From the UHGV virus genome UHGV-0123126: a stretch of 39,300 bases of DNA, one strand, 5' to 3'. Position numbers and translations under genes: made by a program. Under the pieces are notes generated by a model. The model was not told where the DNA came from and ran no database searches. It saw only the letters and a list, made by a program, of their open reading frames with translations. The stretch comes from a virus. Shown in pieces: positions 3,605-29,190 of this stretch (the stretch's first letter is position 1; each line of letters begins with the position of its first letter).

Positions 3605-5944
3605 TTACTCTTCTACTGACTCGGTGGGGTTGTCTTTTGCTCTTCGGTCGTCGATTGCCTGCAAAGCCGCAATGATTTCAGCCAGTGGCTTCTCCCGATA
3701 CATCTCGACGATCTGCGATTTGGTGTATTTCTTGTCACCAATTTCAACTCGCCCGCTGGCGTTCTTTGGCAGGTATCCTTCTTCCAGCATGTACTCGACG
3801 AGCGATTCGATAACGTCGAGGCCACGAGTAGGATCGAAGTAGAATTTCCAGGTGCATTTGCCATACGGTGGTGCAACTTTGTTTTTGATGCATTCTGCGC
3901 CTACGTCCTGGCCGATCTTCTCTTTACCATCCTTCATCACCGATGCACCAAGACGGATACGTACAGAAGCGTAGAACTTCGGTGAATCTCCACCTGGCGA
4001 CGTAGTAGGGTCGCCAAACATTACACCGATTTTTGTGCGAACCTGATTCAAGAAGATGATGCAGGCGTTGTATTTGCGTGCCCACAAAGCCAGAGTAGGG
4101 AAGTTCGCACTCGTCGCACGAGCCAGTGCCGTATTGTCGTTCATGTTTAGCTGATCTTTGTCTTTGGCTGTGCCTTCAGCCATCTTTTCGAACTTCTCGG
4201 CTTTGGAGTTCGGAACCATAGACGCAAGAGAGTCAGCCACGATACAGATAGGTGCTGATTCGGGGATAAGCTCTTCATCACGAACCAATTTAAGTATTGT
4301 GCCGATCAACTCTACAGAGTCTTCGAAGGTATCTGGCTGCTTGTATACCCACTGACCGTCATCCTCATCTGCGTTCAGGCCATTGGCTACAGCCAGGCCA
4401 ACGTCAAAACTGTTTTCATGATCGAGGAATACCGCCAGACCATCTTGTTTTTGAGCGGAGATCATCGCTGCTGTTGCAAGGAATGTGTTGTGGCTGATAA
4501 TCCCGTTAGACCAGAAAGAGTGTGTTTCCGGCATCGCTACGTCGAACGTTGGTGCTTCACCTTCCTCAATAGCCACGACTTCGTCGTAGAACAAGTTAGA
4601 GCCAATTACCGCTGCCAGTTGTGCAAACAGATGCTCGTTAAAACGATTCTTTCTGCCAATGAAGGAGACATAGATTTCTCGCAGTTTGTCTATTCCGACA
4701 CGATCGCCGCGGCCAATAACGTGGTCTACCAGAGCGTAGTCTTCACGGGTGGTCTTGGTGAGCGACTCGTAGAGTGATTTCACTAAGCCGCTGATGTGCG
4801 GAACATAGCCTGAGTAAGTGCGGTCAAAACCAATGTCCCGTTTGGTTGCCACTGATAAACGTGCCGGAGATTCGAAACCAATCGTTGACAGAAAAAGGTC
4901 GTAATTAGAGCCACTGAATGACAGCCGGTAATATGTATTTTCATAACCCGCGACGTGTTTTTCAGAGATAGTTGACGTAATCCCCAGATTCAGGAGCATG
5001 AGGCGAATTTGCTGTAGCAGCAGCCCACTCGCGCTCACAACCTCAATGCAGCGACCATCATTGACGTGGCATTCCAGCTCAAAGTAGCCGCGAAGGAATG
5101 CAATTTGAGCCTCGCTATTGGCGCGACGCACACTCAACGGAACCTGCTTGCCAGCAGCTTTCTCATACTCCAGACCATATTCTTTAAAAAGCAGCGAACG
5201 CACCTCTTTGCTAAACAGCACATGGTCTTCCGAGCCGTTATGTTTTCTCGTAACTGGCATCTTGTCTGATACCAGCGAAATGAGGCGGTAGTACTCATCC
5301 TTGATGAAAGGATCTGTGTTAGAAAAATTCACTGAATTTTCAGAGGCCACGTATCCGTCAGCAATTAAATAGCCCATCAGTTTTGCGATATTGGCATCCA
5401 GGTGCTGATCGCCGAATTGATGTGTGCCAACCATTGAAGGAATCGTGTCGCCTACACTGATTTTTTCAGCATGTCGCCAGACGACATTACCTAAGTCGTC
5501 AACCACACGGATTGGGTGACGGAACGTAGCCTCGATATAACCGCCTGATGCCAGCTTAATACGCTTGAATTTGCGACGGTTGTTCCATGTCAGGTGTGAG
5601 GTCTTCTCTATCACGCCATTTTCATTGATGAGTCCAACGTTATGCTCTACATCGCGAGTAGTGCATGTCGCTTTGTACCCTTCAATCTCAAACAACTCTT
5701 TCACTGTTACCATTCCACGCTCCGTCAGCAGCATGGTGTCTGCGGTAACACATTTCCCCGCGCTTGGTGGCCCGAATACTTCTACGATACGACCACATGG
5801 GAAACCGCCATCGTAACGACCGGAAATAGCTTTGTTTAACGGAGGAAAGCCTGTGTCAATCCAATGAGTTACTTTCTGAATTTCGTCGTTGCTACCGATT
5901 TTCTTTTTCAGAGCAAGTGCCAGTGCGGATTTTCCTTTTGCCAT
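3605..5944 (-). CDS. recA: RecA-family recombinase (RecA/UvsX-like) interrupted by an intein; 779-aa precursor, about 357-aa mature protein
   Basis: N-extein ends GRIVEVFGPPSAGK (Walker A); C-extein resumes TFLATAAM... and contains NQVRTKIGVMFGDPTTSPGGDSPKFYASVRIRLG, closely matching the E. coli RecA core recalled from memory. Confidence 0.9.
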   Translation of the reverse strand: MAKGKSALALALKKKIGSNDEIQKVTHWIDTGFPPLNKAISGRYDGGFPCGRIVEVFGPPSAGKCVTADTMLLTERGMVTVKELFEIEGYKATCTTRDVEHNVGLINENGVIEKTSHLTWNNRRKFKRIKLASGGYIEATFRHPIRVVDDLGNVVWRHAEKISVGDTIPSMVGTHQFGDQHLDANIAKLMGYLIADGYVASENSVNFSNTDPFIKDEYYRLISLVSDKMPVTRKHNGSEDHVLFSKEVRSLLFKEYGLEYEKAAGKQVPLSVRRANSEAQIAFLRGYFELECHVNDGRCIEVVSASGLLLQQIRLMLLNLGITSTISEKHVAGYENTYYRLSFSGSNYDLFLSTIGFESPARLSVATKRDIGFDRTYSGYVPHISGLVKSLYESLTKTTREDYALVDHVIGRGDRVGIDKLREIYVSFIGRKNRFNEHLFAQLAAVIGSNLFYDEVVAIEEGEAPTFDVAMPETHSFWSNGIISHNTFLATAAMISAQKQDGLAVFLDHENSFDVGLAVANGLNADEDDGQWVYKQPDTFEDSVELIGTILKLVRDEELIPESAPICIVADSLASMVPNSKAEKFEKMAEGTAKDKDQLNMNDNTALARATSANFPTLALWARKYNACIIFLNQVRTKIGVMFGDPTTSPGGDSPKFYASVRIRLGASVMKDGKEKIGQDVGAECIKNKVAPPYGKCTWKFYFDPTRGLDVIESLVEYMLEEGYLPKNASGRVEIGDKKYTKSQIVEMYREKPLAEIIAALQAIDDRRAKDNPTESVEE
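4487..5752 (-). other. Intein (422 aa) with LAGLIDADG homing-endonuclease domain, inserted in the RecA P-loop
   Basis: Begins with Cys right after GPPSAGK, ends ...SHN followed by Thr; internal LMGYLIADGYV motif. Confidence 0.85.
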
Positions 5945-14266: not shown

Positions 14267-14450
14267 GTGTTTTTACCTTTATGGTTTTTTTGATTTTGTC
14301 ATTGGGGAAGCCTACGAACTTCCCATACATCGAAATCGCAACTTCTTTTGCTGATTGGTGACAATCGGGCTTGTCTGGACATACCAGACAAGCCTTACCA
14401 GTTTCAGAAGCAGCGATAAGAGAGCCGAAACATCCTTTACGCACGATCAA
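14241..14450 (-). CDS. Small hypothetical protein (69 aa) coupled between the CobS-like and polymerase genes
   Basis: Start overlaps CobS-like stop, stop overlaps polymerase start; several Cys residues. Confidence 0.35.
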   Translation of the reverse strand: MIVRKGCFGSLIAASETGKACLVCPDKPDCHQSAKEVAISMYGKFVGFPNDKIKKTIKVKTHESTDGSN

Positions 14451-15682
14451 CCAAATATTTTTTGAACAACTTCACGAGCCGCTTGTGCAGAAGCTGAAGG
14501 GAGTTTGTTAATGAAAGAACGCTCAATACCTGTCACAAAGTCGCCTCGCATCATTCCAATCTTGGCCGACAACAAAAGTTCACGAGGGCCAATTGGCTGA
14601 CTGATAAGGTGTTCTTCGTATCCATCGCGAACGATACCGGCAAACTTAACCATCTTTTCTGCGTATTCATCCACGATACCGGCATTTATCAACATGTTGA
14701 TCTCTGCCTCTTTGCTCATGTATTTCACATTCGAAACGATGCCAAAACGCGAAAAGTTCGCGGCGTTCTGGATGTTTGTACCCTGGTACAAGCCGGTTTC
14801 ATCACCAGATCCGTTCGTGTTGCCAGTGCCAATGAAAGCAAACCGTTCATGCGGAGTAATGCGACGCCATTCTGGAGTCGCCTCTTTGATGACCAACGCT
14901 TCACCTTCCAGCACTGGCTGATACACGCCAAGAATCTGTGGAAACGCAAAGTCGTATTCATCCGCGAGGTAAACCCAGCCATGCTTCATTGCGAGCGCAA
15001 GCAAGCCAGGCTCGAAATACGTAGAGCCATCACGCGCCAGAATTTGCCCCGTAACATGTGCCTCTTCCATTGATGCTGTATGTTGGGCACGGATCAACGG
15101 ACGATTGAGCAAAGCACATAGTTGTGTAGGCAATGACGATTTGCCTGTTCCTGCATGACCCCACAAATAGCCAGGTATGCCAAGTTCAAGCATCATGAAA
15201 ATGTCTTTGATCAGTTCGAAGTCGCCATATACGTAGCCCTTCTTCACTTCTGGAACGAACTCTGGAAACGGCGTATTGACGTTGACGCTAACCATGAGCG
15301 GCGTCCCACGTTTTGTTCCGAGTTCTTTCACCGTTACATTTAGCAGTTCGTGAGCTGCGACCAGATCTGTCTTGTACTCAACTGTGCCTGTGTAGCCTGG
15401 GCTACTGGTCACGCCAGATGATTTGGCCATTTCGCTTTTTTGCTCGGCACGTTTAGCTTGAATTGCATCAAGTGCCTTTTTCGATAGCGTTGGTTCATCT
15501 GGAAACTGCGTTGTGTACATTTTCAGTACGGTGTCAGGATCGGCATCTTTTACTGACTCAGGAATGCCCTCGCAATTACCATTGGCTACATGGGACTTAA
15601 AATAGTGAAATGATTTGCCGCACCACTTGCAAACAAGGTAATCAGAAGGATTTTTATCATTTTGCAGTGCAGTAGTAGTCAT
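14447..15682 (-). CDS. cobS: CobS-like / MoxR-family AAA+ ATPase
   Basis: Walker A GHAGTGKSS, Walker B-like VYLADEYD; 411 aa; paired with a downstream vWA protein. Confidence 0.85.
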   Translation of the reverse strand: MTTTALQNDKNPSDYLVCKWCGKSFHYFKSHVANGNCEGIPESVKDADPDTVLKMYTTQFPDEPTLSKKALDAIQAKRAEQKSEMAKSSGVTSSPGYTGTVEYKTDLVAAHELLNVTVKELGTKRGTPLMVSVNVNTPFPEFVPEVKKGYVYGDFELIKDIFMMLELGIPGYLWGHAGTGKSSLPTQLCALLNRPLIRAQHTASMEEAHVTGQILARDGSTYFEPGLLALAMKHGWVYLADEYDFAFPQILGVYQPVLEGEALVIKEATPEWRRITPHERFAFIGTGNTNGSGDETGLYQGTNIQNAANFSRFGIVSNVKYMSKEAEINMLINAGIVDEYAEKMVKFAGIVRDGYEEHLISQPIGPRELLLSAKIGMMRGDFVTGIERSFINKLPSASAQAAREVVQKIFG

Positions 15683-15745
15683 GCGCTTTTCCTTTGTTCT
15701 CTAATGAGCGTTCAAGTTCTTATATAAATATACCATTAACTATGG

Positions 15746-15759
15746 TAAGTAGTTACTTA
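15746..15759. promoter_or_regulatory. Palindrome TAAGTA-GT-TACTTA within conserved GGTAAGTAGTTACTTATC, between the CobT-like and CobS-like genes
   Basis: Near-identical GGTAGGTAGTTACTTACTTATC occurs at 31411..31430 upstream of another minus-strand gene. Confidence 0.4.
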
Positions 15760-15777
15760 TCATTAAGGCTGTTTTAA

Positions 15778-17886
15778 TTACTTCAAAATGATACGAGATA
15801 GTTCAGTAACTACAGATGAACCAAGACTATCAACACTAGTTACCAGGGCATGATTTGCGTAAAATCTCTCCGGTGCATCAGTCATGATGCCAATTGCCAT
15901 CAAATCAATGTCAGTCTGCGTTTCAATTTGCTTCGTAACCGAACGCAAATGGGCGTCAAAACCTCTCCCAACAGCCCACGGCGCGCCATCACTCAGAACA
16001 AGCATGATCTTCCTGTCCTCCAAGCGACCGGAAAATAACGATGCAAGGCTGGCTATGCTTTCACCATCCACGTTATTAAGAAGTGGGAATGTGTAGCCTA
16101 CGCACCCCATACGTGAGCGAACTTCGCGAGAATTTGCTTTTTCATTCCAATTTTTGATGATAGGTAGCATTAAAGATTCAAAGCGAGAGAACTCATATTT
16201 GATAGCCTTAAGTTCTCCTGCTGCCATATGACTGCCAAATGTAGTGAAGCCGGTGATAATGTTGGGAACATTTATTCGATCAAGTGCATCGGCGATGGTA
16301 TATGCACTTGCAAGAGCTAGTTTTATCGTTTCGCCACTCATTGAACCCGATAAATCAATCACTTGTTGAACACAGGCGTTAACGGCTTTAGATTCTTCTT
16401 TTTTACGAAACACGCGATCATCATTCATTGTTAATCTGTAGATACTTGAACCATGAATGCGCCCCCGACGCTGGCCAGGTATAAACTGAACTCTGTTTCT
16501 GCTTGCTATTGCACGTTCCAGGTCTTTTGCCAGCGTCGACGAAACACCTGACGAAAGGTGCTTTTCAATATATTTGTCGAAGAGCTGGTTGCCTTCAGGA
16601 ACGATGCGATAACGGCTGATTGGATATCCACCTAAATCAATATCGGAGAATGTTTTAATAAGCCGTTTGATATGGGCTTCTGCCTGATCAATCGAGCCGA
16701 TGAAGTCGTATGAGCGATTGTATGGCCTGTATTCGCTTTTCGAGCTTTCTGTTAACTCGCTTTTAATCGTTTCGGATAGCGCATCTTCTGTCATGCCTCC
16801 GACTTCATCTTCCATGCTATCCAACTCCTCTAAAGCCTCTTCCAGACTCATTTTTGACGGAGTTGGAATGTCTGAAGAGCCGTCTTCTGTCGATTTTCTT
16901 TTTTCGTGGTCAGTGGTAAATGATTCTGACGCCGCGTTATCAGAAGCACCAGAATCTGATACCTCTTTATCATTTTCTGTATCATCGAATATTGTTTCTG
17001 ATGATTCAGAATTATCTGAATCATCACTGTCGTTATTATCATGTTTGTACTTACTGTGTGATTCTGATTTGATAGATTTGTGATTATCTAACGCTGAGGG
17101 TGTCTCATGATCTTCGTTGTCTTCATTGTTTTCTCCAGAGGCATCCGTCTGGTCAGCGTCTGAAGGATCGGAAGTTTTTCCCGGAGCTGACTCCTTACCT
17201 TTGCTTTCACTTTCAGTGTCTTTGAGGATCTTAGCTATGGTCGCAGCCACCTTTACACAATCCTCGGTGCAAGACATGTTACGCACGGCCACATCGATAC
17301 CATGTTCTTTTAATAATGAAATTGGTTTCTCAATGACAGGCCAATATTCATCCATGAAATCTACGAACGGTGCTTGGCCATCCCAGGCTCTTACAACCGG
17401 ACAGAGAAAGAAGTTTAGAAAAAGCGCGCGCTGATCTTTGCCACAATAAGCAATAGCCTCTGAAGCCTTTGTTTTAAAGACTTTTTCGATTATAAGGCGC
17501 TGAGTTGCCATCAGATTACGTCTTGTTCCGTTAAAGACCTGACCCATTTTTCGCTCGATGAACACGTCTTCTAAGGCATTCCATAGCGACCAGGAAGGAA
17601 CGCGTCCTTTTTCTCTCATTTTGTTGGACACACGAATATCGGTAAACAAAATGTGAGCAACCTCATGATCGAGAAATCCGCGCACAGCATTCATCAATGC
17701 CGGTGTTGCGTTATCCGGGATTGATGGGATGTTTACGAGAATTGGCTCTCCATCATCGTTATAGCGTACATAAGCGTCGTCCCCTCGTTCTGCAACAGGG
17801 ATGTTTTTACCTGAAAGGAGAGCGACTACTCGTTTTACACTGTCACGGAAGTCCTGAACCTCTTTGATGGAACGTTTTTTAGACAT
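15778..17886 (-). CDS. cobT: CobT-like von Willebrand factor A (vWA) domain protein with long acidic low-complexity linker
   Basis: 702 aa; MIDAS-like DLSGSMSGE; Ser/Asp/Glu-rich segment around residues 220-370; directly upstream of the AAA+ partner. Confidence 0.8.
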   Translation of the reverse strand: MSKKRSIKEVQDFRDSVKRVVALLSGKNIPVAERGDDAYVRYNDDGEPILVNIPSIPDNATPALMNAVRGFLDHEVAHILFTDIRVSNKMREKGRVPSWSLWNALEDVFIERKMGQVFNGTRRNLMATQRLIIEKVFKTKASEAIAYCGKDQRALFLNFFLCPVVRAWDGQAPFVDFMDEYWPVIEKPISLLKEHGIDVAVRNMSCTEDCVKVAATIAKILKDTESESKGKESAPGKTSDPSDADQTDASGENNEDNEDHETPSALDNHKSIKSESHSKYKHDNNDSDDSDNSESSETIFDDTENDKEVSDSGASDNAASESFTTDHEKRKSTEDGSSDIPTPSKMSLEEALEELDSMEDEVGGMTEDALSETIKSELTESSKSEYRPYNRSYDFIGSIDQAEAHIKRLIKTFSDIDLGGYPISRYRIVPEGNQLFDKYIEKHLSSGVSSTLAKDLERAIASRNRVQFIPGQRRGRIHGSSIYRLTMNDDRVFRKKEESKAVNACVQQVIDLSGSMSGETIKLALASAYTIADALDRINVPNIITGFTTFGSHMAAGELKAIKYEFSRFESLMLPIIKNWNEKANSREVRSRMGCVGYTFPLLNNVDGESIASLASLFSGRLEDRKIMLVLSDGAPWAVGRGFDAHLRSVTKQIETQTDIDLMAIGIMTDAPERFYANHALVTSVDSLGSSVVTELSRIILK

Positions 17887-23316: not shown

Positions 23317-23338
23317 GATAAGTAAGTAAATACTTATC
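23317..23338. promoter_or_regulatory. Palindrome GATAAGTA-AGTAAA-TACTTATC, 3' of the small-gene operon
   Basis: Perfect 8-bp arms; same ATAAGTA/TACTTAT family as 3546, 15746, 26840. Confidence 0.45.
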
Positions 23339-26015: not shown

Positions 26016-26798
26016 TTACCAACTTCCCCAGCTAATCATCTTGCGCTGATCGCTTTCTAAGCGATAGGGGGCAAGAAGCTCTGTGACATGATTGGTGGCG
26101 TATGATTTGGCCTCTTGCTCTATCATCGGTAATTCGTTAGCAATCCTGACCATCTTCCCAGCAAATTCCGCCATTACGCCATCACATGCCTTCCCAGCAT
26201 CAATAACGATATGCACCAGATCCAACTGGCTTTTGCACATGTCGCAAAGAGTCGAATATTCGCTTTCCCTGATTAGGTTTACAGCATCATTAGCCCCTTT
26301 ATTAATCAAAACCTCCAACAGATTTGTCGGGGTGACGAAATCGGCTTTCAGAGACAATGTTGGTTCAGCTTTTACCGACAGCAAGTAATCTTCAAAGTTT
26401 TGCTTGTCTTCCAGCAAAGCTAAACTGCGCATAGCTCGAATTGATTCTCGAATGACGGCTTCAATATGTTCGTCACCTGGAGGACAGATAATGGTATCTG
26501 TATAGATGACTCTGCCATCAAACCACGCCCCAACCTGCACTTTTAGAGTTCGTAAGTTTTCTTTGCGTACAAAAACAACTAATGCAGAACGTCGTGCATG
26601 TGCAGGTTCGCCCCATACGCGCAACTTAACCTTCAGATAAGGTAGCCCCGGTAGCGGGATCTCGACCAAACGAGTGGCGATATGATCCATTGCCGTATTG
26701 ACGGCTTTTTCAATGATGTCTAGCCGATTGCTCTCGCTGATTTCTAAACCAGTTTTATCAATGATGTTGCAGGCTAATCTCTTAATTTCTTCTTTCAT
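26016..26798 (-). CDS. Hypothetical protein (260 aa)
   Basis: Long ORF, co-directional with the replication genes; no motif recognised. Confidence 0.5.
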   Translation of the reverse strand: MKEEIKRLACNIIDKTGLEISESNRLDIIEKAVNTAMDHIATRLVEIPLPGLPYLKVKLRVWGEPAHARRSALVVFVRKENLRTLKVQVGAWFDGRVIYTDTIICPPGDEHIEAVIRESIRAMRSLALLEDKQNFEDYLLSVKAEPTLSLKADFVTPTNLLEVLINKGANDAVNLIRESEYSTLCDMCKSQLDLVHIVIDAGKACDGVMAEFAGKMVRIANELPMIEQEAKSYATNHVTELLAPYRLESDQRKMISWGSW

Positions 26799-26839
26799 AC
26801 CAACTCCTAGCTAACAGATGGCAGTATTCTTACACACTA

Positions 26840-26859
26840 ATAAGTAATCATCTACTTAT
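26840..26859. promoter_or_regulatory. Palindrome ATAAGTA-ATCATC-TACTTAT in the divergent region between the 260-aa ORF and the Sel1 gene
   Basis: Perfect 7-bp arms; motif family member. Confidence 0.4.
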
Positions 26860-26979
26860 CTTTTCGGCGATTGGGTATGCTGACAGTTAAGCTAAATTGA
26901 AGTAATCTTACCAATCGGTGATTACAAAGCCTTACACCGAGTAGCCACAACCACCTAACCATCTTGTGAAAATCCAAAA

Positions 26980-28017
26980 ATGAAACATTTCAAACCAATA
27001 TCTTTCTTTATGTTGTCGCTATTACTTGTTTCGGGGAGTGCACATGCCTATGAAATACAAAAGCTGATCGATGCGGCAAAAGCAGGCGACGTTGAGTCAC
27101 AGAGTGCTTTAGGTATCGACTATATGAAAGGTATTCATGGTGTCGAAAAAAACTACGATGAAGCCAGAAAATGGCTTGAACTGGCGACTTCTAAGGGGAA
27201 CAAAGAAGCGTTTAATGCTCTAGGTATAATGTATGCCCTTGGGTATGGGGTTGATAAAAATTTCAAAAAGGCTGAGGAACTCTTTAAGAAAGCTGGTGAT
27301 GCAGCTGGAGGCAACTCTTATCACAATCTGGGTGTTATTTATCATAAAGGACTTGCGGGTAAGAAAGACCAAAAACTTTCCCTGAAATATCACAAACTTG
27401 CAGTAGAGGCTGGCGACCCTGAATCTGCGTCATATCTAGGACAGTTATATTATGTTGGCGCAGGCGTGCCAAAAAGCTACAAAAAGGCAATAGAGTATTA
27501 TAAAAAAGGAATCGAACTAGGCAGTGCATCTGCATTGGCGAATCTTGGCATTATGTATGAGTATGGTGAAGGGGTTAAAAAAGATTATAAAAAAGCAGCT
27601 GAGCTTTATCAGGCAGCTTGCGATAAAGAAGATAAAAATGGCTGTGATTACATTGCAGAACTAAAAGAAAGCGGTAAATACCAACCATCAGCAGCAAGAT
27701 CTAAAGCAAAATCCTCCACTCAGCGACTTATTGCTAAATCCATTGATAAAGGCGTTAACGCAACATTTACCTGGCAGGGTGATGATGCCACCTTCACCGC
27801 TAATGATGGCAAAATTGACTGCACTTTCCTAAAGGATTTTTCAGAGAAAGGAGGCAATCTGGCTACCTCGTTTGTTTGCACCGATAACGTTCAAATCATC
27901 CTGAAGCAATTCAGAGATACCAAGAATGCCTACCTCGCGGTAATGACTGACAACTTCAACACAGAAGTTAAATCATTTTCGGTCAATGTTTACGTGACTA
28001 ATACTGGTTCAAACTAG
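26980..28017 (+). CDS. Secreted Sel1-like repeat (TPR-like) protein with N-terminal signal peptide
   Basis: Signal peptide ending SGSAHA; repeated about 36-aa units with A-x-x-G-[VI]-x-Y and K-A-x-E-[LW]-[YF]-K-K-A spacing. Confidence 0.8.
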   Translation: MKHFKPISFFMLSLLLVSGSAHAYEIQKLIDAAKAGDVESQSALGIDYMKGIHGVEKNYDEARKWLELATSKGNKEAFNALGIMYALGYGVDKNFKKAEELFKKAGDAAGGNSYHNLGVIYHKGLAGKKDQKLSLKYHKLAVEAGDPESASYLGQLYYVGAGVPKSYKKAIEYYKKGIELGSASALANLGIMYEYGEGVKKDYKKAAELYQAACDKEDKNGCDYIAELKESGKYQPSAARSKAKSSTQRLIAKSIDKGVNATFTWQGDDATFTANDGKIDCTFLKDFSEKGGNLATSFVCTDNVQIILKQFRDTKNAYLAVMTDNFNTEVKSFSVNVYVTNTGSN

Positions 28018-29190
28018 TGCTGCAATGCCTTTCACCTTGCTTAAGAGTTCAAGCTGTCGTGAATAAGGTTTTGCGCAATAGTAGGCTTTGATAATCTGCC
28101 CCGGTGTCGCATCGCCGGGGTCGAGTCCTTCCTCGCCCAAACACGCAACTTTGACATTAAGGCCAATACTTGTGAGTCGCCTAGCTGCGGCCATAGTGTT
28201 GCGTATAGCTTGCTTTTCACTATCCCACATCATGATCACATTACGTAATCCACGCGCCTTGAGCGTCAGGAACGCGCCCAGCTGATCTTCTGCATCCTGA
28301 GTGGTGTTGCCAGATAGATGCATCCCGAACGTTCCTATTGGTTCCACGTAATCACGTAATGTTTCTTCGTCAAAAATAGCTCGTTTGACCCCCATAACAT
28401 CGAACGCCCCCTCACAGACAACTACCGTCTGTTTGCCGACTGCATTATGGCCGTTGTAGAGAAACTTACCTGAAGCTGGAAGCTGCACAGGAAAGAGGTA
28501 GCGACGTTCTGCTGTACCGGTAATGTCTCGTCCCTGAAATGTCTTCATTACCCCATCCAGATCGTAAACCGGTATCAGTATTCGCATATCGAATATCTGT
28601 CCTTTAACCTGATCTGTATACGGATCTACATAGGCGTGCTTGCCTTCGACGCAGTATCGTAGGTCAAAATACTTTGCCATTTCAGGCGATATGTTTCGTT
28701 CAACCAGATAGTCTGGAAGACGACCATCTATAGGAAGCTCGTAATGACGAGGGAGTGCAACTGGCCCCTCTAACTCGACTGTGCTTGCAAGCACTAGCTC
28801 TTCTTTCTTTGGTGCCCACCCCTGGGAAAGAAGGGCGTTCTGCACATATTCCTCGAACTGTCGTCGTGATTTGCCGCTGTAGTGCTTGAGGAAGACCAGC
28901 TTATTGAACTGAATCTCTTCGGGATGATCACCAGCGAAGCATTTACCGACGCCACTGGTCAGATTGAAATATACCTTCCAGTTGGAGCTGCCACATACCG
29001 GACACTCCTTGATATTCACTTCACGACCGCGAGTACTCACGCCTCCACGTCGATAAACGATACCTTCAGTATCCAACCATTGTTCAAAATCTAATTCGGT
29101 AATTAGCTCTTTCAGCTCGCTCACGATAATTCCACTTTTAACAGGCAATATTGTGACCAACCTAAATGTTGATATAACATAAAGGCTCAT
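28009..29190 (-). CDS. DNA primase (zinc-finger plus TOPRIM); start uncertain (track ORF begins at GTG 29262)
   Basis: Zinc ribbon CPVCGSSNW...KCFAG; TOPRIM-like VVVCEGAFDVMGV; ATG at 29188..29190 avoids the hairpin at 29241..29258. Confidence 0.75.
   Translation of the reverse strand: MSLYVISTFRLVTILPVKSGIIVSELKELITELDFEQWLDTEGIVYRRGGVSTRGREVNIKECPVCGSSNWKVYFNLTSGVGKCFAGDHPEEIQFNKLVFLKHYSGKSRRQFEEYVQNALLSQGWAPKKEELVLASTVELEGPVALPRHYELPIDGRLPDYLVERNISPEMAKYFDLRYCVEGKHAYVDPYTDQVKGQIFDMRILIPVYDLDGVMKTFQGRDITGTAERRYLFPVQLPASGKFLYNGHNAVGKQTVVVCEGAFDVMGVKRAIFDEETLRDYVEPIGTFGMHLSGNTTQDAEDQLGAFLTLKARGLRNVIMMWDSEKQAIRNTMAAARRLTSIGLNVKVACLGEEGLDPGDATPGQIIKAYYCAKPYSRQLELLSKVKGIAALV

What the first reader, a model, noticed from the sequence alone, without database searches (positions are those of the whole stretch)
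26980..28017. Secreted Sel1-like repeat protein on a phage-like element
A signal peptide followed by several Sel1-type repeats is typical of periplasmic or secreted adaptor proteins. It is divergently transcribed from the replication genes with its own promoter region and could be a lysogenic-conversion or host-interaction factor.
Basis: partly seen in the sequence, partly recalled or inferred. Interest (0 to 1): 0.45.

Follow-up and report, generated by a model that had tools for sequence, protein, structure and literature searches.

The report
Exported Sel1-repeat cargo gene on phage-plasmid
This is a real, optional cargo gene of an SSU5-like phage-plasmid of E. coli that encodes an exported protein made of five Sel1 repeats plus a small, previously undescribed beta-barrel domain; it is probably a protein-binding factor that helps the carrier cell, but its function is untested.

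Summary
The ORF at 26980-28017 (+) is real. That domain is a predicted 8-stranded beta-barrel of about 100 aa (pLDDT 87). It has no Pfam or PDB sequence relative and only 8 representatives among 1.84 billion proteins.

The window is the replication and maintenance region of an SSU5-like phage-plasmid. The gene sits in a fixed slot: divergent from the left operon, and convergent with the primase gene with a 9-nt overlap. The domain is found in 91 plasmids, against 395 that carry this primase, and in none of the six related phage records.

It has the marks of a moron. It has low GC. A promoter-like block (CTGACA-N17-TAAYCT) is conserved in six contexts. Solitary copies lie on chromosomes, one still attached to a primase remnant.

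This allele is a mosaic. The Sel1 part is as diverged from the common E. coli allele as from other genera, with synonymous sites saturated. The barrel is 98% identical, with dN/dS about 0.06.

Function is unknown. My best guess, at low confidence, is a periplasmic binder or neutraliser of an envelope-acting protein. This is an ordinary, moderately interesting accessory gene.

The parts
26864..28008 (+). Accessory cassette: the segment missing from related phages and plasmids whose slot is empty.
   Evidence: Homology to PhiR41_1 stops at 26863-26873 and resumes at 28063. The slot is 75 bp there and in CP090273. GC is 40.7% against 45-48% in the flanks.
26840..26859 (.). Perfect palindrome ATAAGTA-N6-TACTTAT. 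It is operator-like and belongs to the backbone and the left-hand operon, not to the cassette.
   Evidence: There are 9 matches in the window against 0.16 expected, and 8 of the 9 lie outside ORFs of at least 100 aa. It is retained in PhiR41_1, which lacks the gene.
26880..26908 (+). Conserved promoter-like block: -35 CTGACA (26880-26885), 17-nt spacer, -10 TAATCT (26903-26908).
   Evidence: Invariant columns in the alignment of four diverged upstream regions. It occurs once per locus, 88-100 nt upstream of the ATG, in window, L002, L004, L005/L017, L009/L010 and L013. Function as a promoter is inferred.
26980..28017 (+). Whole CDS, 345 aa plus stop.
   Evidence: RefSeq relatives are annotated 'tetratricopeptide repeat protein'. 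It matches phrog_8741, unknown function, E=1e-143.
26980..27048 (+). Signal peptide, aa 1-23, with predicted cleavage AHA|YE.
   Evidence: Sequence features. Residues 1-19 have pLDDT below 50. The -3/-1 small-residue rule is kept in all full-length homologues.
27097..27639 (+). Five Sel1-like repeats (aa 40-76, 77-112, 113-148, 149-184, 185-220). An N-cap helix (aa 24-39, nt 27049-27096) precedes them.
   Evidence: Pfam gives 5 stretches. The AF2 model has 12 helices with pLDDT above 90. Foldseek and phmmer match LpnE, the Oxalobacter Sel1 protein, EsiB/c5321 and HcpC. Repeat boundaries were read from the sequence.
26864..27486 (+). Deeply diverged (swapped) part of this allele: promoter region, signal peptide and the first ~3.5 repeats.
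   Evidence: blastn homology to the pECOH89-type alleles starts only at 27487. For aa 24-187, identity is 52% and pS about 0.8, which is saturated. The breakpoint coincides with a 36-aa (one-repeat) indel.
27640..27717 (+). C-cap helix carrying C222 (partner of C214; C-x7-C) and a basic Ser/Ala/Lys linker.
   Evidence: C214 and C222 are invariant. The linker has low pLDDT and pI 10.5.
27718..28005 (+). C-terminal 8-stranded beta-barrel domain (aa 247-342) with an invariant Cys pair, C281/C300, on neighbouring strands 4 and 5.
28009..28017 (.). 9-nt convergent overlap of the Sel1 stop region with the primase stop region.
   Evidence: The same 9-nt overlap is seen in the E. coli, Citrobacter and Enterobacter elements.

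Best explanation
The gene is an optional, self-promoted cargo gene (a moron) of an SSU5-like phage-plasmid. Its product is exported by the Sec pathway, and the 23-aa signal peptide is removed. The mature ~35-kDa protein sits in the periplasm and is probably stabilised by two disulfides (C214-C222 and C281-C300).

The protein has two modules. The first is a five-repeat Sel1 solenoid, a protein-binding surface that varies in repeat number (5, 6 or 7) and has been swapped by recombination between alleles. The second is a strongly conserved 8-stranded beta-barrel of an undescribed family.

My preferred mechanism is that the protein binds and neutralises an envelope-acting protein. Candidates are a peptidoglycan hydrolase, the tail lysin of an incoming phage, or a toxin delivered by a competitor. 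Cells carrying the element would thereby be protected.

Shown here: the anatomy, the export signals, accessory status, the fixed slot, the mosaic structure, purifying selection, and the conserved upstream block.

Inferred: actual export and cleavage, promoter activity, periplasmic residence, and the whole 'binder/neutraliser' function. My confidence is about 0.9 for the anatomy, 0.8 for moron status and 0.3 for the neutraliser function. The figure below is for the statement as a whole.
For: Anatomy:
- ORF and Sel1 repeats.
- AF2 solenoid plus barrel.
- Exactly four cysteines, all invariant in 11 homologues.

Element identity:
- Flanks are 94-97% identical to Escherichia phages PhiR41_1 and Cyrano, and the primase is 80% identical to SSU5.
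- PHROG hits to DNA polymerase, ligase, primase, DnaB-like helicase, ParA and tail fibre.

Accessory status:
- Absent from all 6 related phage records.
- The C-domain is found in 91 plasmids (Escherichia 60, Enterobacter 22, Citrobacter 8), against 395 plasmids with this primase.
- It always abuts the primase.
- The slot is empty in PhiR41_1 and CP090273, and a 3' remnant survives in CP088502.
- GC3 is 36% against 45-51% in the flanking genes.

Autonomy:
- The conserved CTGACA-N17-TAAYCT block travels with the gene, including to chromosomal copies.
- The E. whittamii chromosome keeps the gene beside a decayed primase fragment (86% identity over 72 aa) and IS3-like ORFs (my reading).

Selection:
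- Barrel dN/dS is 0.05-0.07. The Sel1 part is saturated at synonymous sites and only 52% identical to the common E. coli allele.

Precedents for a neutraliser role:
- The periplasmic Sel1 protein IltA inhibits the lytic transglycosylase MltF and is paired with a lipoprotein (PMC10746161).
- The T6SS-locus proteins PA5086, PA5087 and PA5088 (PA5087 and PA5088 deposited as immunity proteins) appear among the fold matches.
- Small periplasmic 8-stranded barrels include the lysozyme and hydrolase inhibitors PliC, MliC, ACP and PhiA, and the T6SS immunity protein BtaiB (PMC5507604, PMC8334348).
- A BFVD match is annotated as a putative lysozyme inhibitor.
- The Pseudenterobacter copy lies in a decayed contact-dependent-inhibition toxin island.
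Against: - There is no expression, localisation or phenotype data, and no paper mentions this protein.
- The MliC/PliC motifs and Pfam family are absent.
- No toxin or effector gene is next to the gene in the window or in most contexts.
- The Sel1 part is closer in sequence to EsiB, HcpC and the Oxalobacter proteins (E 1e-37 to 1e-51) than to the T6SS immunity proteins (E about 1e-6 to 1e-7).
- The -10 element is weak (3 of 6), no Shine-Dalgarno sequence is visible, and no terminator follows the gene.
- PADLOC gave no meaningful hit.
Confidence: 0.4

Rival explanations
1. It modulates the host's own envelope machinery for the benefit of the element. It would bind a resident periplasmic enzyme or sensor, for example a lytic transglycosylase as IltA does, or a sensor kinase as ExoR does. 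The effect would be a change in cell-wall turnover or signalling rather than neutralisation of something incoming.
For: Characterised periplasmic Sel1 proteins do exactly this (IltA, PMC10746161). NCBIfam gives weak, sub-threshold similarity to ExoR, MotX, AlgK and MerG. The pECOH89-type cassette carries an adjacent lipoprotein gene, reminiscent of the IltA/LiiA pair. The barrel is extremely conserved, which would fit a conserved host partner.
Against: All NCBIfam scores are far below their cut-offs. The lipoprotein gene is absent from this window's cassette and from the Citrobacter and Enterobacter cassettes. The deep divergence and swapping of the Sel1 module fit a variable target better than a conserved housekeeping one.
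Confidence: 0.2
2. It is a factor acting on a eukaryotic host, for example binding immunoglobulin or host receptors as EsiB/c5321, LpnE or the Helicobacter Hcp proteins do. It would be released from or exposed on the cell, making this classical lysogenic conversion towards virulence or colonisation.
For: The closest solved relatives by sequence and fold include EsiB/c5321 of uropathogenic E. coli (E=3e-46), HcpC, LpnE and LceB. Many carrier plasmids come from human and animal isolates.
Against: The similarity is confined to the generic repeat scaffold (aa 26-232) and none covers the barrel. Carriers also come from river water, soil and wastewater. Homologues also occur in Pantoea and Leclercia. 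There is no secretion-system signal or partner gene that would take the protein beyond the periplasm. Only the last repeat has the Hcp-type Cys pair.
Confidence: 0.15
3. It is a regulatory passenger whose main effect is in cis. Transcription from its promoter runs antisense into the primase-helicase operon, because there is no terminator and the overlap is 9 nt. This would damp replication-gene expression, with the protein itself secondary.
For: No terminator-like site lies on the + strand between 28017 and 28674. The convergent 9-nt overlap is conserved across genera.
Against: Strong purifying selection on the protein (dN/dS 0.05-0.07), and retention of intact copies away from any primase gene (Pseudenterobacter and Pantoea), show that the protein itself is selected. 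About three quarters of related plasmids do without the gene.
Confidence: 0.07
4. It is a phage life-cycle gene (virion, lysis or replication component) rather than cargo.
For: It lies inside the replication module and belongs to a PHROG family.
Against: It is absent from the isolated phages PhiR41_1, Cyrano and SSU5 and from most related plasmids. It is in the opposite orientation to the surrounding operons. Solitary chromosomal copies exist.
Confidence: 0.03

Closest known systems
Bacterial exported Sel1-like repeat (SLR) proteins: EsiB/c5321 of E. coli CFT073 (PDB 4bwr), the Oxalobacter formigenes Sel1 proteins (6ok3), HcpC (1ouv), LpnE (6deh) and LceB (8sxq)
   Same: The repeat family and alpha/alpha solenoid fold are the same. 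Sequence E-values are 1e-30 to 1e-51 over aa 26-232, and Foldseek E is about 1e-12. Several of these also carry signal peptides (from my own knowledge).
   Different: None of them has the C-terminal beta-barrel, and all matches stop by aa 232. Only the last repeat here carries the Hcp-type C-x7-C pair. This gene sits on a phage-plasmid in a fixed slot next to the primase.
[quoted passage not shown]
   Same: These are SLR proteins that act by binding and neutralising an enzyme or toxin (PMC10746161, PMC7108748). Like the protein here, IltA is predicted to be periplasmic; Sel1E's localisation predictions were inconclusive. The PA508x structures appear among the fold matches. Sel1E likewise has an uncharacterised C-terminal extension (PMC7108748).
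   Different: Sequence similarity is weak (E about 1e-6 to 1e-7). No cognate effector or hydrolase gene is adjacent here. No functional test exists for this protein.
MliC/PliC, ACP and PhiA: small periplasmic 8-stranded beta-barrel inhibitors of lysozymes and peptidoglycan hydrolases. Also BtaiB, a T6SS immunity protein.
   Different: There is no Pfam MliC match. The SxSGAxY and YxxxTKG motifs are absent. The disulfide would link strands 4 and 5, not 1 and 8 (against PMC5507604). Unrelated barrels score equally high. Here the barrel is fused to an SLR solenoid rather than free-standing.
Phage morons and superinfection-exclusion factors exported to the envelope, for example T4 Spackle, a periplasmic inhibitor of the incoming tail lysozyme gp5 (from my own knowledge)
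   Same: A phage-borne, non-essential, exported protein. It has its own promoter-like block, atypical GC, and presence/absence among close relatives.
   Different: There is no sequence or fold relation to Spackle. No terminator follows the gene. Expression in the lysogen and any exclusion phenotype are untested.

Membership tests
Sel1-like repeat (SLR) proteins, Pfam PF08238 | Repeats of 36-44 aa matching the Sel1 profile above the curated cut-off | tested here: met
   127.6 bits against a cut-off of 30.7, E=1e-37, 5 stretches.
Sel1-like repeat (SLR) proteins, Pfam PF08238 | Alpha/alpha solenoid fold | tested here: met
   The AF2 model has 12 helices at aa 17-230 with pLDDT above 90. Foldseek E is about 1e-12 to LpnE, HcpC, EsiB and LceB.
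Sec / signal peptidase I exported proteins | Basic n-region, hydrophobic h-region, small residues at -3/-1 | tested here: met
   K2 and K5; hydrophobic core at aa 7-17 (mean hydropathy 2.56); A-H-A before Y24. The pattern is kept in diverged homologues. This is a heuristic only, because no SignalP run was possible.
Sec / signal peptidase I exported proteins | Actual export and cleavage | not testable with these tools
   Needs a PhoA fusion, fractionation or N-terminal sequencing. Indirect support comes from four invariant Cys arranged as two plausible disulfide pairs.
Bacterial lipoproteins (signal peptidase II) | Lipobox ending in Cys at +1 | tested here: not met
   The first Cys is at residue 214.
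Helicobacter cysteine-rich proteins (Hcp family) | A C-x7-C disulfide pair in every repeat (defining feature taken from my own knowledge of HcpB/HcpC) | tested here: not met
   Only one such pair is present (C214/C222, last repeat). The other repeats have no Cys.
MliC/PliC lysozyme inhibitors (Pfam PF09864) | Eight-stranded antiparallel beta-barrel | tested here: met
MliC/PliC lysozyme inhibitors (Pfam PF09864) | Profile match and the conserved motifs SxSGAxY and YxxxTKG (PMC5507604) | tested here: not met
   No Pfam family at E<=10 for the C-domain. Neither motif is in the protein.
MliC/PliC lysozyme inhibitors (Pfam PF09864) | Disulfide between strands 1 and 8 | tested here: not met
   The two Cys lie on strands 4 and 5 of the model.
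T6SS/CDI immunity proteins | Gene directly adjacent to its cognate toxin or effector gene | tested here: not met
   The neighbours here are a phrog_4248 gene and the primase. The same holds in Citrobacter and Enterobacter. Only the Pseudenterobacter copy lies within a decayed CDI island, and it is not directly behind a toxin domain. An orphan immunity gene would not need adjacency, so this does not exclude the mode of action.
Phage morons | Non-essential; present or absent among close relatives; inserted between phage operons | tested here: met
Phage morons | Own promoter | tested here: inconclusive
   A conserved CTGACA-N17-TAAYCT block lies 88-100 nt upstream in six contexts. The -10 matches only 3 of 6, and no transcript data exist.
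Phage morons | Own terminator | tested here: not met
   No terminator-like site lies downstream on the + strand before 28674. The gene overlaps the primase stop.
Phage morons | Base composition different from the surrounding genome | tested here: met
   GC is 40.7% and GC3 36%, against 45-48% and 45-51% in the flanks.
Phage morons | Expressed from the resident (lysogenic) element | not testable with these tools
   Needs RNA-seq or a reporter fusion in a strain carrying the phage-plasmid.
Known anti-phage defence systems (PADLOC) | Match to a defence-system protein model | tested here: not met
   The only hit is spurious: 16 bits to PtuA with no domain stretch.

The most novel reading that the evidence does not exclude
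The protein is a phage-plasmid-borne, two-module periplasmic shield. The invariant beta-barrel would be a new family of inhibitor or anchor domain. The exchangeable Sel1 solenoid would set specificity. Together they would protect carrier cells against an incoming envelope-degrading weapon, such as a T6SS or CDI effector, host lysozyme, or the tail lysin of superinfecting phages. That would make it a mobile 'orphan immunity' gene whose specificity module is shuffled between SSU5-like elements of Escherichia, Enterobacter and Citrobacter.
Probability: 0.2. Interest if true: 0.6.

Novelty: new variant of a known kind. Interest (0 to 1): 0.3.

Why it matters
SSU5-like phage-plasmids are common in clinical and animal Enterobacteriaceae and are mostly treated as cryptic. 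About a quarter of them carry this exported protein in one fixed slot. The gene has also been kept on chromosomes after the rest of the element decayed, which argues that it pays its way for the cell.

If it protects against lysozyme, competitor toxins or other phages, it would be a fitness determinant that spreads by infection. It would also define a new small periplasmic domain family.

If it has no such phenotype, it remains one more Sel1-repeat protein of unknown function. The repeated operator-like palindrome found nearby may be of more use for understanding how the early operons of these elements are controlled.

Tried and rejected
- A strict sigma-70 and terminator consensus scan found no promoter in the 181-bp upstream region and no terminator after the gene. 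The promoter candidate came only from conservation. My first regular expression for it had the wrong spacing and found nothing.
- Rfam found nothing in 26500-28500 at E<=1.
- PADLOC gave no real hit. NCBIfam gave only far-sub-threshold SLR families: MerG, AlgK, MotX and ExoR.
- For the C-domain, Pfam gave nothing at E<=10. A PDB profile search gave only a chance hit at E=0.86.
- An exhaustive phmmer search found 8 representatives, one of which (P0125, an S-layer Ig-like repeat protein) is a chance motif match. A profile search of the 5.8-billion-protein set added only fragments.
- The AlphaFold-database fold library was not available.
- I considered positive selection on the Sel1 part. It cannot be shown, because synonymous sites are saturated, so the pattern is better read as recombination with an old allele.
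- I considered recent insertion of the cassette. The same slot and the same 9-nt overlap across three genera, plus a 3' remnant in CP088502, favour an old resident gene with repeated loss.
- I considered beta-lactamase activity, as some records annotate 'HcpC precursor'. No catalytic motif is known for that claim, so I did not pursue it.
- A look-up of P0012 context failed. Searches for the protein accessions in the literature found no paper. The phage-plasmid survey preprint does not mention the gene.
Full report

Yes. An ATG-initiated ORF runs from 26980 to 28017 on the + strand and encodes 345 aa. No competing ORF on either strand of that interval exceeds 66 aa.

Pfam Sel1 (PF08238) scores 127.6 bits against a curated cut-off of 30.7, E=1e-37, in five stretches. 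Read from the sequence, the repeats are aa 40-76, 77-112, 113-148, 149-184 and 185-220.

The N-terminus MKHFKPISFFMLSLLLVSGSAHA|YE has the features of a signal peptide. There are two lysines, an 11-residue hydrophobic core (best 10-mer hydropathy 2.56), and A-H-A at -3 to -1. There is no cysteine before residue 214, so the protein is not a lipoprotein.

The signal region is only 43-52% identical among homologues. All of them nevertheless keep the same layout and a small residue at -3 and -1: VNA, AVA, ARA, SYA, VHA. I could not run a trained signal-peptide predictor, so export and the cleavage site are inferred.

**2.

AlphaFold2 on an 11-sequence alignment gives a confident solenoid of 12 helices (aa 17-230, pLDDT above 90) followed by eight strands. 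Modelled alone with nine diverse sequences, the last 107 aa give pLDDT 87 and pTM 0.76, as an eight-stranded antiparallel all-beta domain.

This domain has no known sequence relatives:
- No Pfam family at E<=10.
- No sequence relative in the PDB (every PDB match to the full protein ends by aa 232).
- Only eight representatives at E<=0.001 in an exhaustive scan of 1.84 billion cluster representatives, one of them a chance motif match.

The most distant true relative, P0124 (38% identity), again has signal peptide, Sel1-like repeats and then this domain. The architecture is therefore conserved.

The fold class is clear, but homology to any of these is not shown.

The protein has exactly four cysteines, all invariant in 11 homologues. 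C214-x7-C222 bridges the two helices of the last repeat; I recall this as the Hcp-type pattern. C281 and C300 lie on neighbouring strands 4 and 5 of the barrel model, roughly in register. Two conserved Cys pairs fit an oxidising compartment.

**3. What the surroundings are.**

The flanks are 94-97% identical to Escherichia phages PhiR41_1, Cyrano and CMS-2020a, and the primase is 80% identical to Salmonella phage SSU5. The same region occurs only on plasmids of about 105-120 kb among complete E. coli genomes, with 0 chromosomal places.

PHROG scans of the window's genes give DNA polymerase, ligase, primase, DnaB-like helicase, ParA-like protein, an integrase-family protein and a tail fibre. 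The window is thus the replication and maintenance part of an SSU5-like phage-plasmid.

The Sel1 gene is the only + strand gene between two minus-strand operons. It is divergent from the 260-aa phrog_4248 gene (26016-26798). It is convergent with the primase, whose stop region it overlaps by 9 nt. 'Divergently transcribed from the replication genes' is therefore only half right.

**4. It is optional cargo in a fixed slot.**

In PhiR41_1, Cyrano, CMS-2020a and plasmid CP090273 the two neighbours are 75 bp apart and the gene is missing. Homology to PhiR41_1 ends at 26863-26873 and resumes at 28063. No record in the phage collection has the C-domain.

In PLSDB, tblastn with the C-domain finds 91 plasmids: Escherichia 60, Enterobacter 22, Citrobacter 8, and one from an uncultured bacterium. 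Eighty-eight of them are nearly full length, and in the rows listed the gene abuts a primase-region gene. The primase itself is found in 395 plasmids: Escherichia 221, Enterobacter 86, Salmonella 47, Citrobacter 23, Klebsiella 8, Shigella 7 and three others. Roughly a quarter of these elements therefore carry the gene, and none of those from Salmonella, Klebsiella or Shigella do.

In Citrobacter and Enterobacter the gene (417 aa, seven repeats) occupies the same slot with the same 9-nt overlap. Plasmid CP088502 keeps only the last ~47 codons. The simplest history is an old resident gene that has been lost repeatedly, not a recent insertion.

The gene's GC is 40.7% (GC3 36%), against 45-48% (GC3 45-51%) for the neighbours.

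**5. It carries its own upstream signal.**

A strict consensus scan finds no sigma-70 promoter upstream. However, aligning the otherwise diverged upstream regions of four alleles reveals one invariant block. It is CTGACA, then 17 nt, then TAAYCT or TACCCT. In the window this is 26880-26885 and 26903-26908.

A pattern search finds this block once per locus, always 88-100 nt upstream of the start codon and on the same strand. It is present in both E. coli allele types, in Citrobacter and Enterobacter, and in the chromosomal copies of Pseudenterobacter timonensis and Escherichia whittamii.

This is a good -35, a correct spacer, and a weak -10 that keeps T1, A2 and T6. Promoter function is inferred.

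There is no visible Shine-Dalgarno sequence; the leader is A-rich. There is no terminator after the gene, so transcripts would run antisense into the primase gene.

**6. Copies outside phage-plasmids.**

- Escherichia whittamii has an intact copy between genes I read as yciB and yciA. It is flanked by IS3-like ORFs (my reading) and a primase remnant that is 86% identical over 72 aa to the window's primase, E=3e-43. This is a captured fragment of such an element in which only this gene stayed whole.
- Pseudenterobacter timonensis has an intact copy inside an island of decayed contact-dependent-inhibition toxin fragments and an IS element.
- Pantoea cypripedii has a solitary copy among metabolic genes.
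- In Leclercia adecarboxylata the copy is broken into three ORFs, next to ORFs that I read as prophage tail-fibre-like genes.

The gene thus moves and survives on its own, which argues that the cell benefits from it.

**7. This allele is a mosaic.**

Only three complete records carry this exact 345-aa allele: CP050499, CP195946 and CP014490, at 99.6%. About 58 others carry a 381-aa allele, preceded in the pECOH89-type records I examined (L002, L003) by an extra 137-aa lipoprotein gene. Nucleotide homology between the two allele types starts only at 27487, which is codon 170, exactly where a 36-aa one-repeat gap lies.

Nei-Gojobori estimates against pECOH89 are shown below.

| Region | aa identity | Synonymous divergence | dN | dN/dS |
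|---|---|---|---|---|
| aa 24-187 (Sel1 part) | 52% | pS 0.80 (saturated) | 0.36 | not estimable |
| aa 246-345 (barrel) | 98% | dS 0.13-0.17 | 0.009 | 0.05-0.07 |

The 52% identity of the Sel1 part is the same as against Citrobacter or Pseudenterobacter.

The N-terminal two thirds, together with the promoter region, therefore came from a deeply diverged allele by recombination within the repeats. Positive selection cannot be demonstrated. The barrel is under strong purifying selection. Repeat number is 5 here, 6 in the common E. coli allele, and 7 in the other genera.

**8. How it most likely works.**

The shown facts describe an exported, disulfide-bonded, two-module protein made from a self-contained cassette. 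One module is an exchangeable protein-binding solenoid and the other is a conserved barrel.

Precedents for periplasmic Sel1 proteins include direct inhibition of a lytic transglycosylase, where IltA works with a lipoprotein partner (PMC10746161), and immunity to a T6SS effector, where Sel1E protects against VgrG4 (PMC7108748). The PA5086-5088 proteins of P. aeruginosa also appear among the fold matches. Precedents for small periplasmic 8-stranded barrels include the lysozyme and hydrolase inhibitors MliC/PliC, ACP and PhiA (PMC5507604, PMC8334348).

I therefore commit to a binder or neutraliser of an envelope-acting protein that protects the carrier cell, at about 0.3 for that function.

This is an analogy, not membership. 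The MliC Pfam family and both MliC motifs are absent. The Cys pair is on different strands than in MliC/PliC. No effector gene is adjacent. The Sel1 part is closer to EsiB, HcpC and the Oxalobacter proteins than to the immunity proteins.

The rivals, in order:
- A modulator of a resident envelope enzyme or sensor (0.2).
- A eukaryote-directed factor like EsiB or LpnE (0.15). This is weakened by carriers from water, soil and wastewater, by homologues in other genera such as Pantoea and Leclercia, and by the lack of any route beyond the periplasm.
- A mainly cis-acting antisense role (0.07).
- A life-cycle gene (0.03).

**9. Novelty and verdict.**

The gene is already annotated in RefSeq as 'tetratricopeptide repeat protein' and sits in PHROG 8741 (unknown function). 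No paper mentions it.

New here are the recognition of the C-terminal barrel as a separate, very narrowly distributed domain; the fixed-slot accessory status; the conserved promoter-like block; the mosaic allele; and the captured chromosomal copies.

It is a new variant of a known kind: an exported Sel1-repeat protein. It is of modest interest until a phenotype is found.

Noticed in passing
window 1593, 3546, 20433, 23318, 26840, 31409, 31526/31533, 36157 (20-nt sites): The palindrome ATAAGTA-N6-TACTTAT occurs 9 times with up to 2 mismatches, against 0.16 expected by chance. It is perfect at 23318 and 26840. Eight of the nine sites lie outside ORFs of at least 100 aa, mostly upstream of the minus-strand early, replication and partition operons or in divergent regions. 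It looks like the operator set of one regulator of the element. The copy at 26840-26859 lies 21 nt left of the Sel1 -35 and is kept in PhiR41_1, which lacks the gene.
   Followed up: partly
L002 1686-2099 (pECOH89), minus strand: The commoner E. coli version of the cassette carries an extra 137-aa gene with a lipoprotein signal (LVGC lipobox; phrog_2320, unknown function). It lies between the backbone and the Sel1 promoter block. It is absent from this window and from the Citrobacter and Enterobacter cassettes. It is a possible partner protein.
   Followed up: partly
L013 5554-8942 (Escherichia whittamii chromosome): An intact copy of the gene, with the promoter block, lies between genes I read as yciB and yciA. 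It is flanked by IS3-like ORFs (my reading) and a 72-aa remnant of the phage-plasmid primase (86% identity). This is a captured fragment of an SSU5-like element in which only this gene stayed intact.
   Followed up: yes
L005 7768-15894 (Pseudenterobacter timonensis chromosome): The chromosomal homologue lies inside an island of decayed contact-dependent-inhibition toxin fragments (Fil_haemagg_2, PT-VENN and DUF6862 with a downstream small ORF), a NERD-domain gene and an IS3-type transposase.
   Followed up: partly
L015 7000-8291 (Leclercia adecarboxylata chromosome): The homologue is split into three ORFs, so it is a pseudogene. It sits just downstream of ORFs that I read as prophage tail-fibre-like genes, a classical moron position in an integrated prophage.
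   Followed up: no
window 28009-28062 (primase 3' end): The last ~18 codons of the primase differ between elements with the Sel1 gene (...LELLSKVKGIAALV) and those without it (...LELQSKVLGIKALS). The local divergence tract extends beyond the cassette into the primase tail, which overlaps the Sel1 stop.
   Followed up: partly
window 14447-17886, minus strand: An adjacent gene pair matches PHROGs annotated as 'porphyrin biosynthesis'/ATPase and CobT-like cobaltochelatase subunit (a CobS/CobT-like pair). It lies next to the DNA polymerase gene in the replication region, and its role there is unexplained.
   Followed up: no
window 3605-5944, minus strand: A 779-aa protein (phrog_9666) has three stretches matching a UvsX/RecA-like recombinase profile, which is unusually long for a recombinase.
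   Followed up: no
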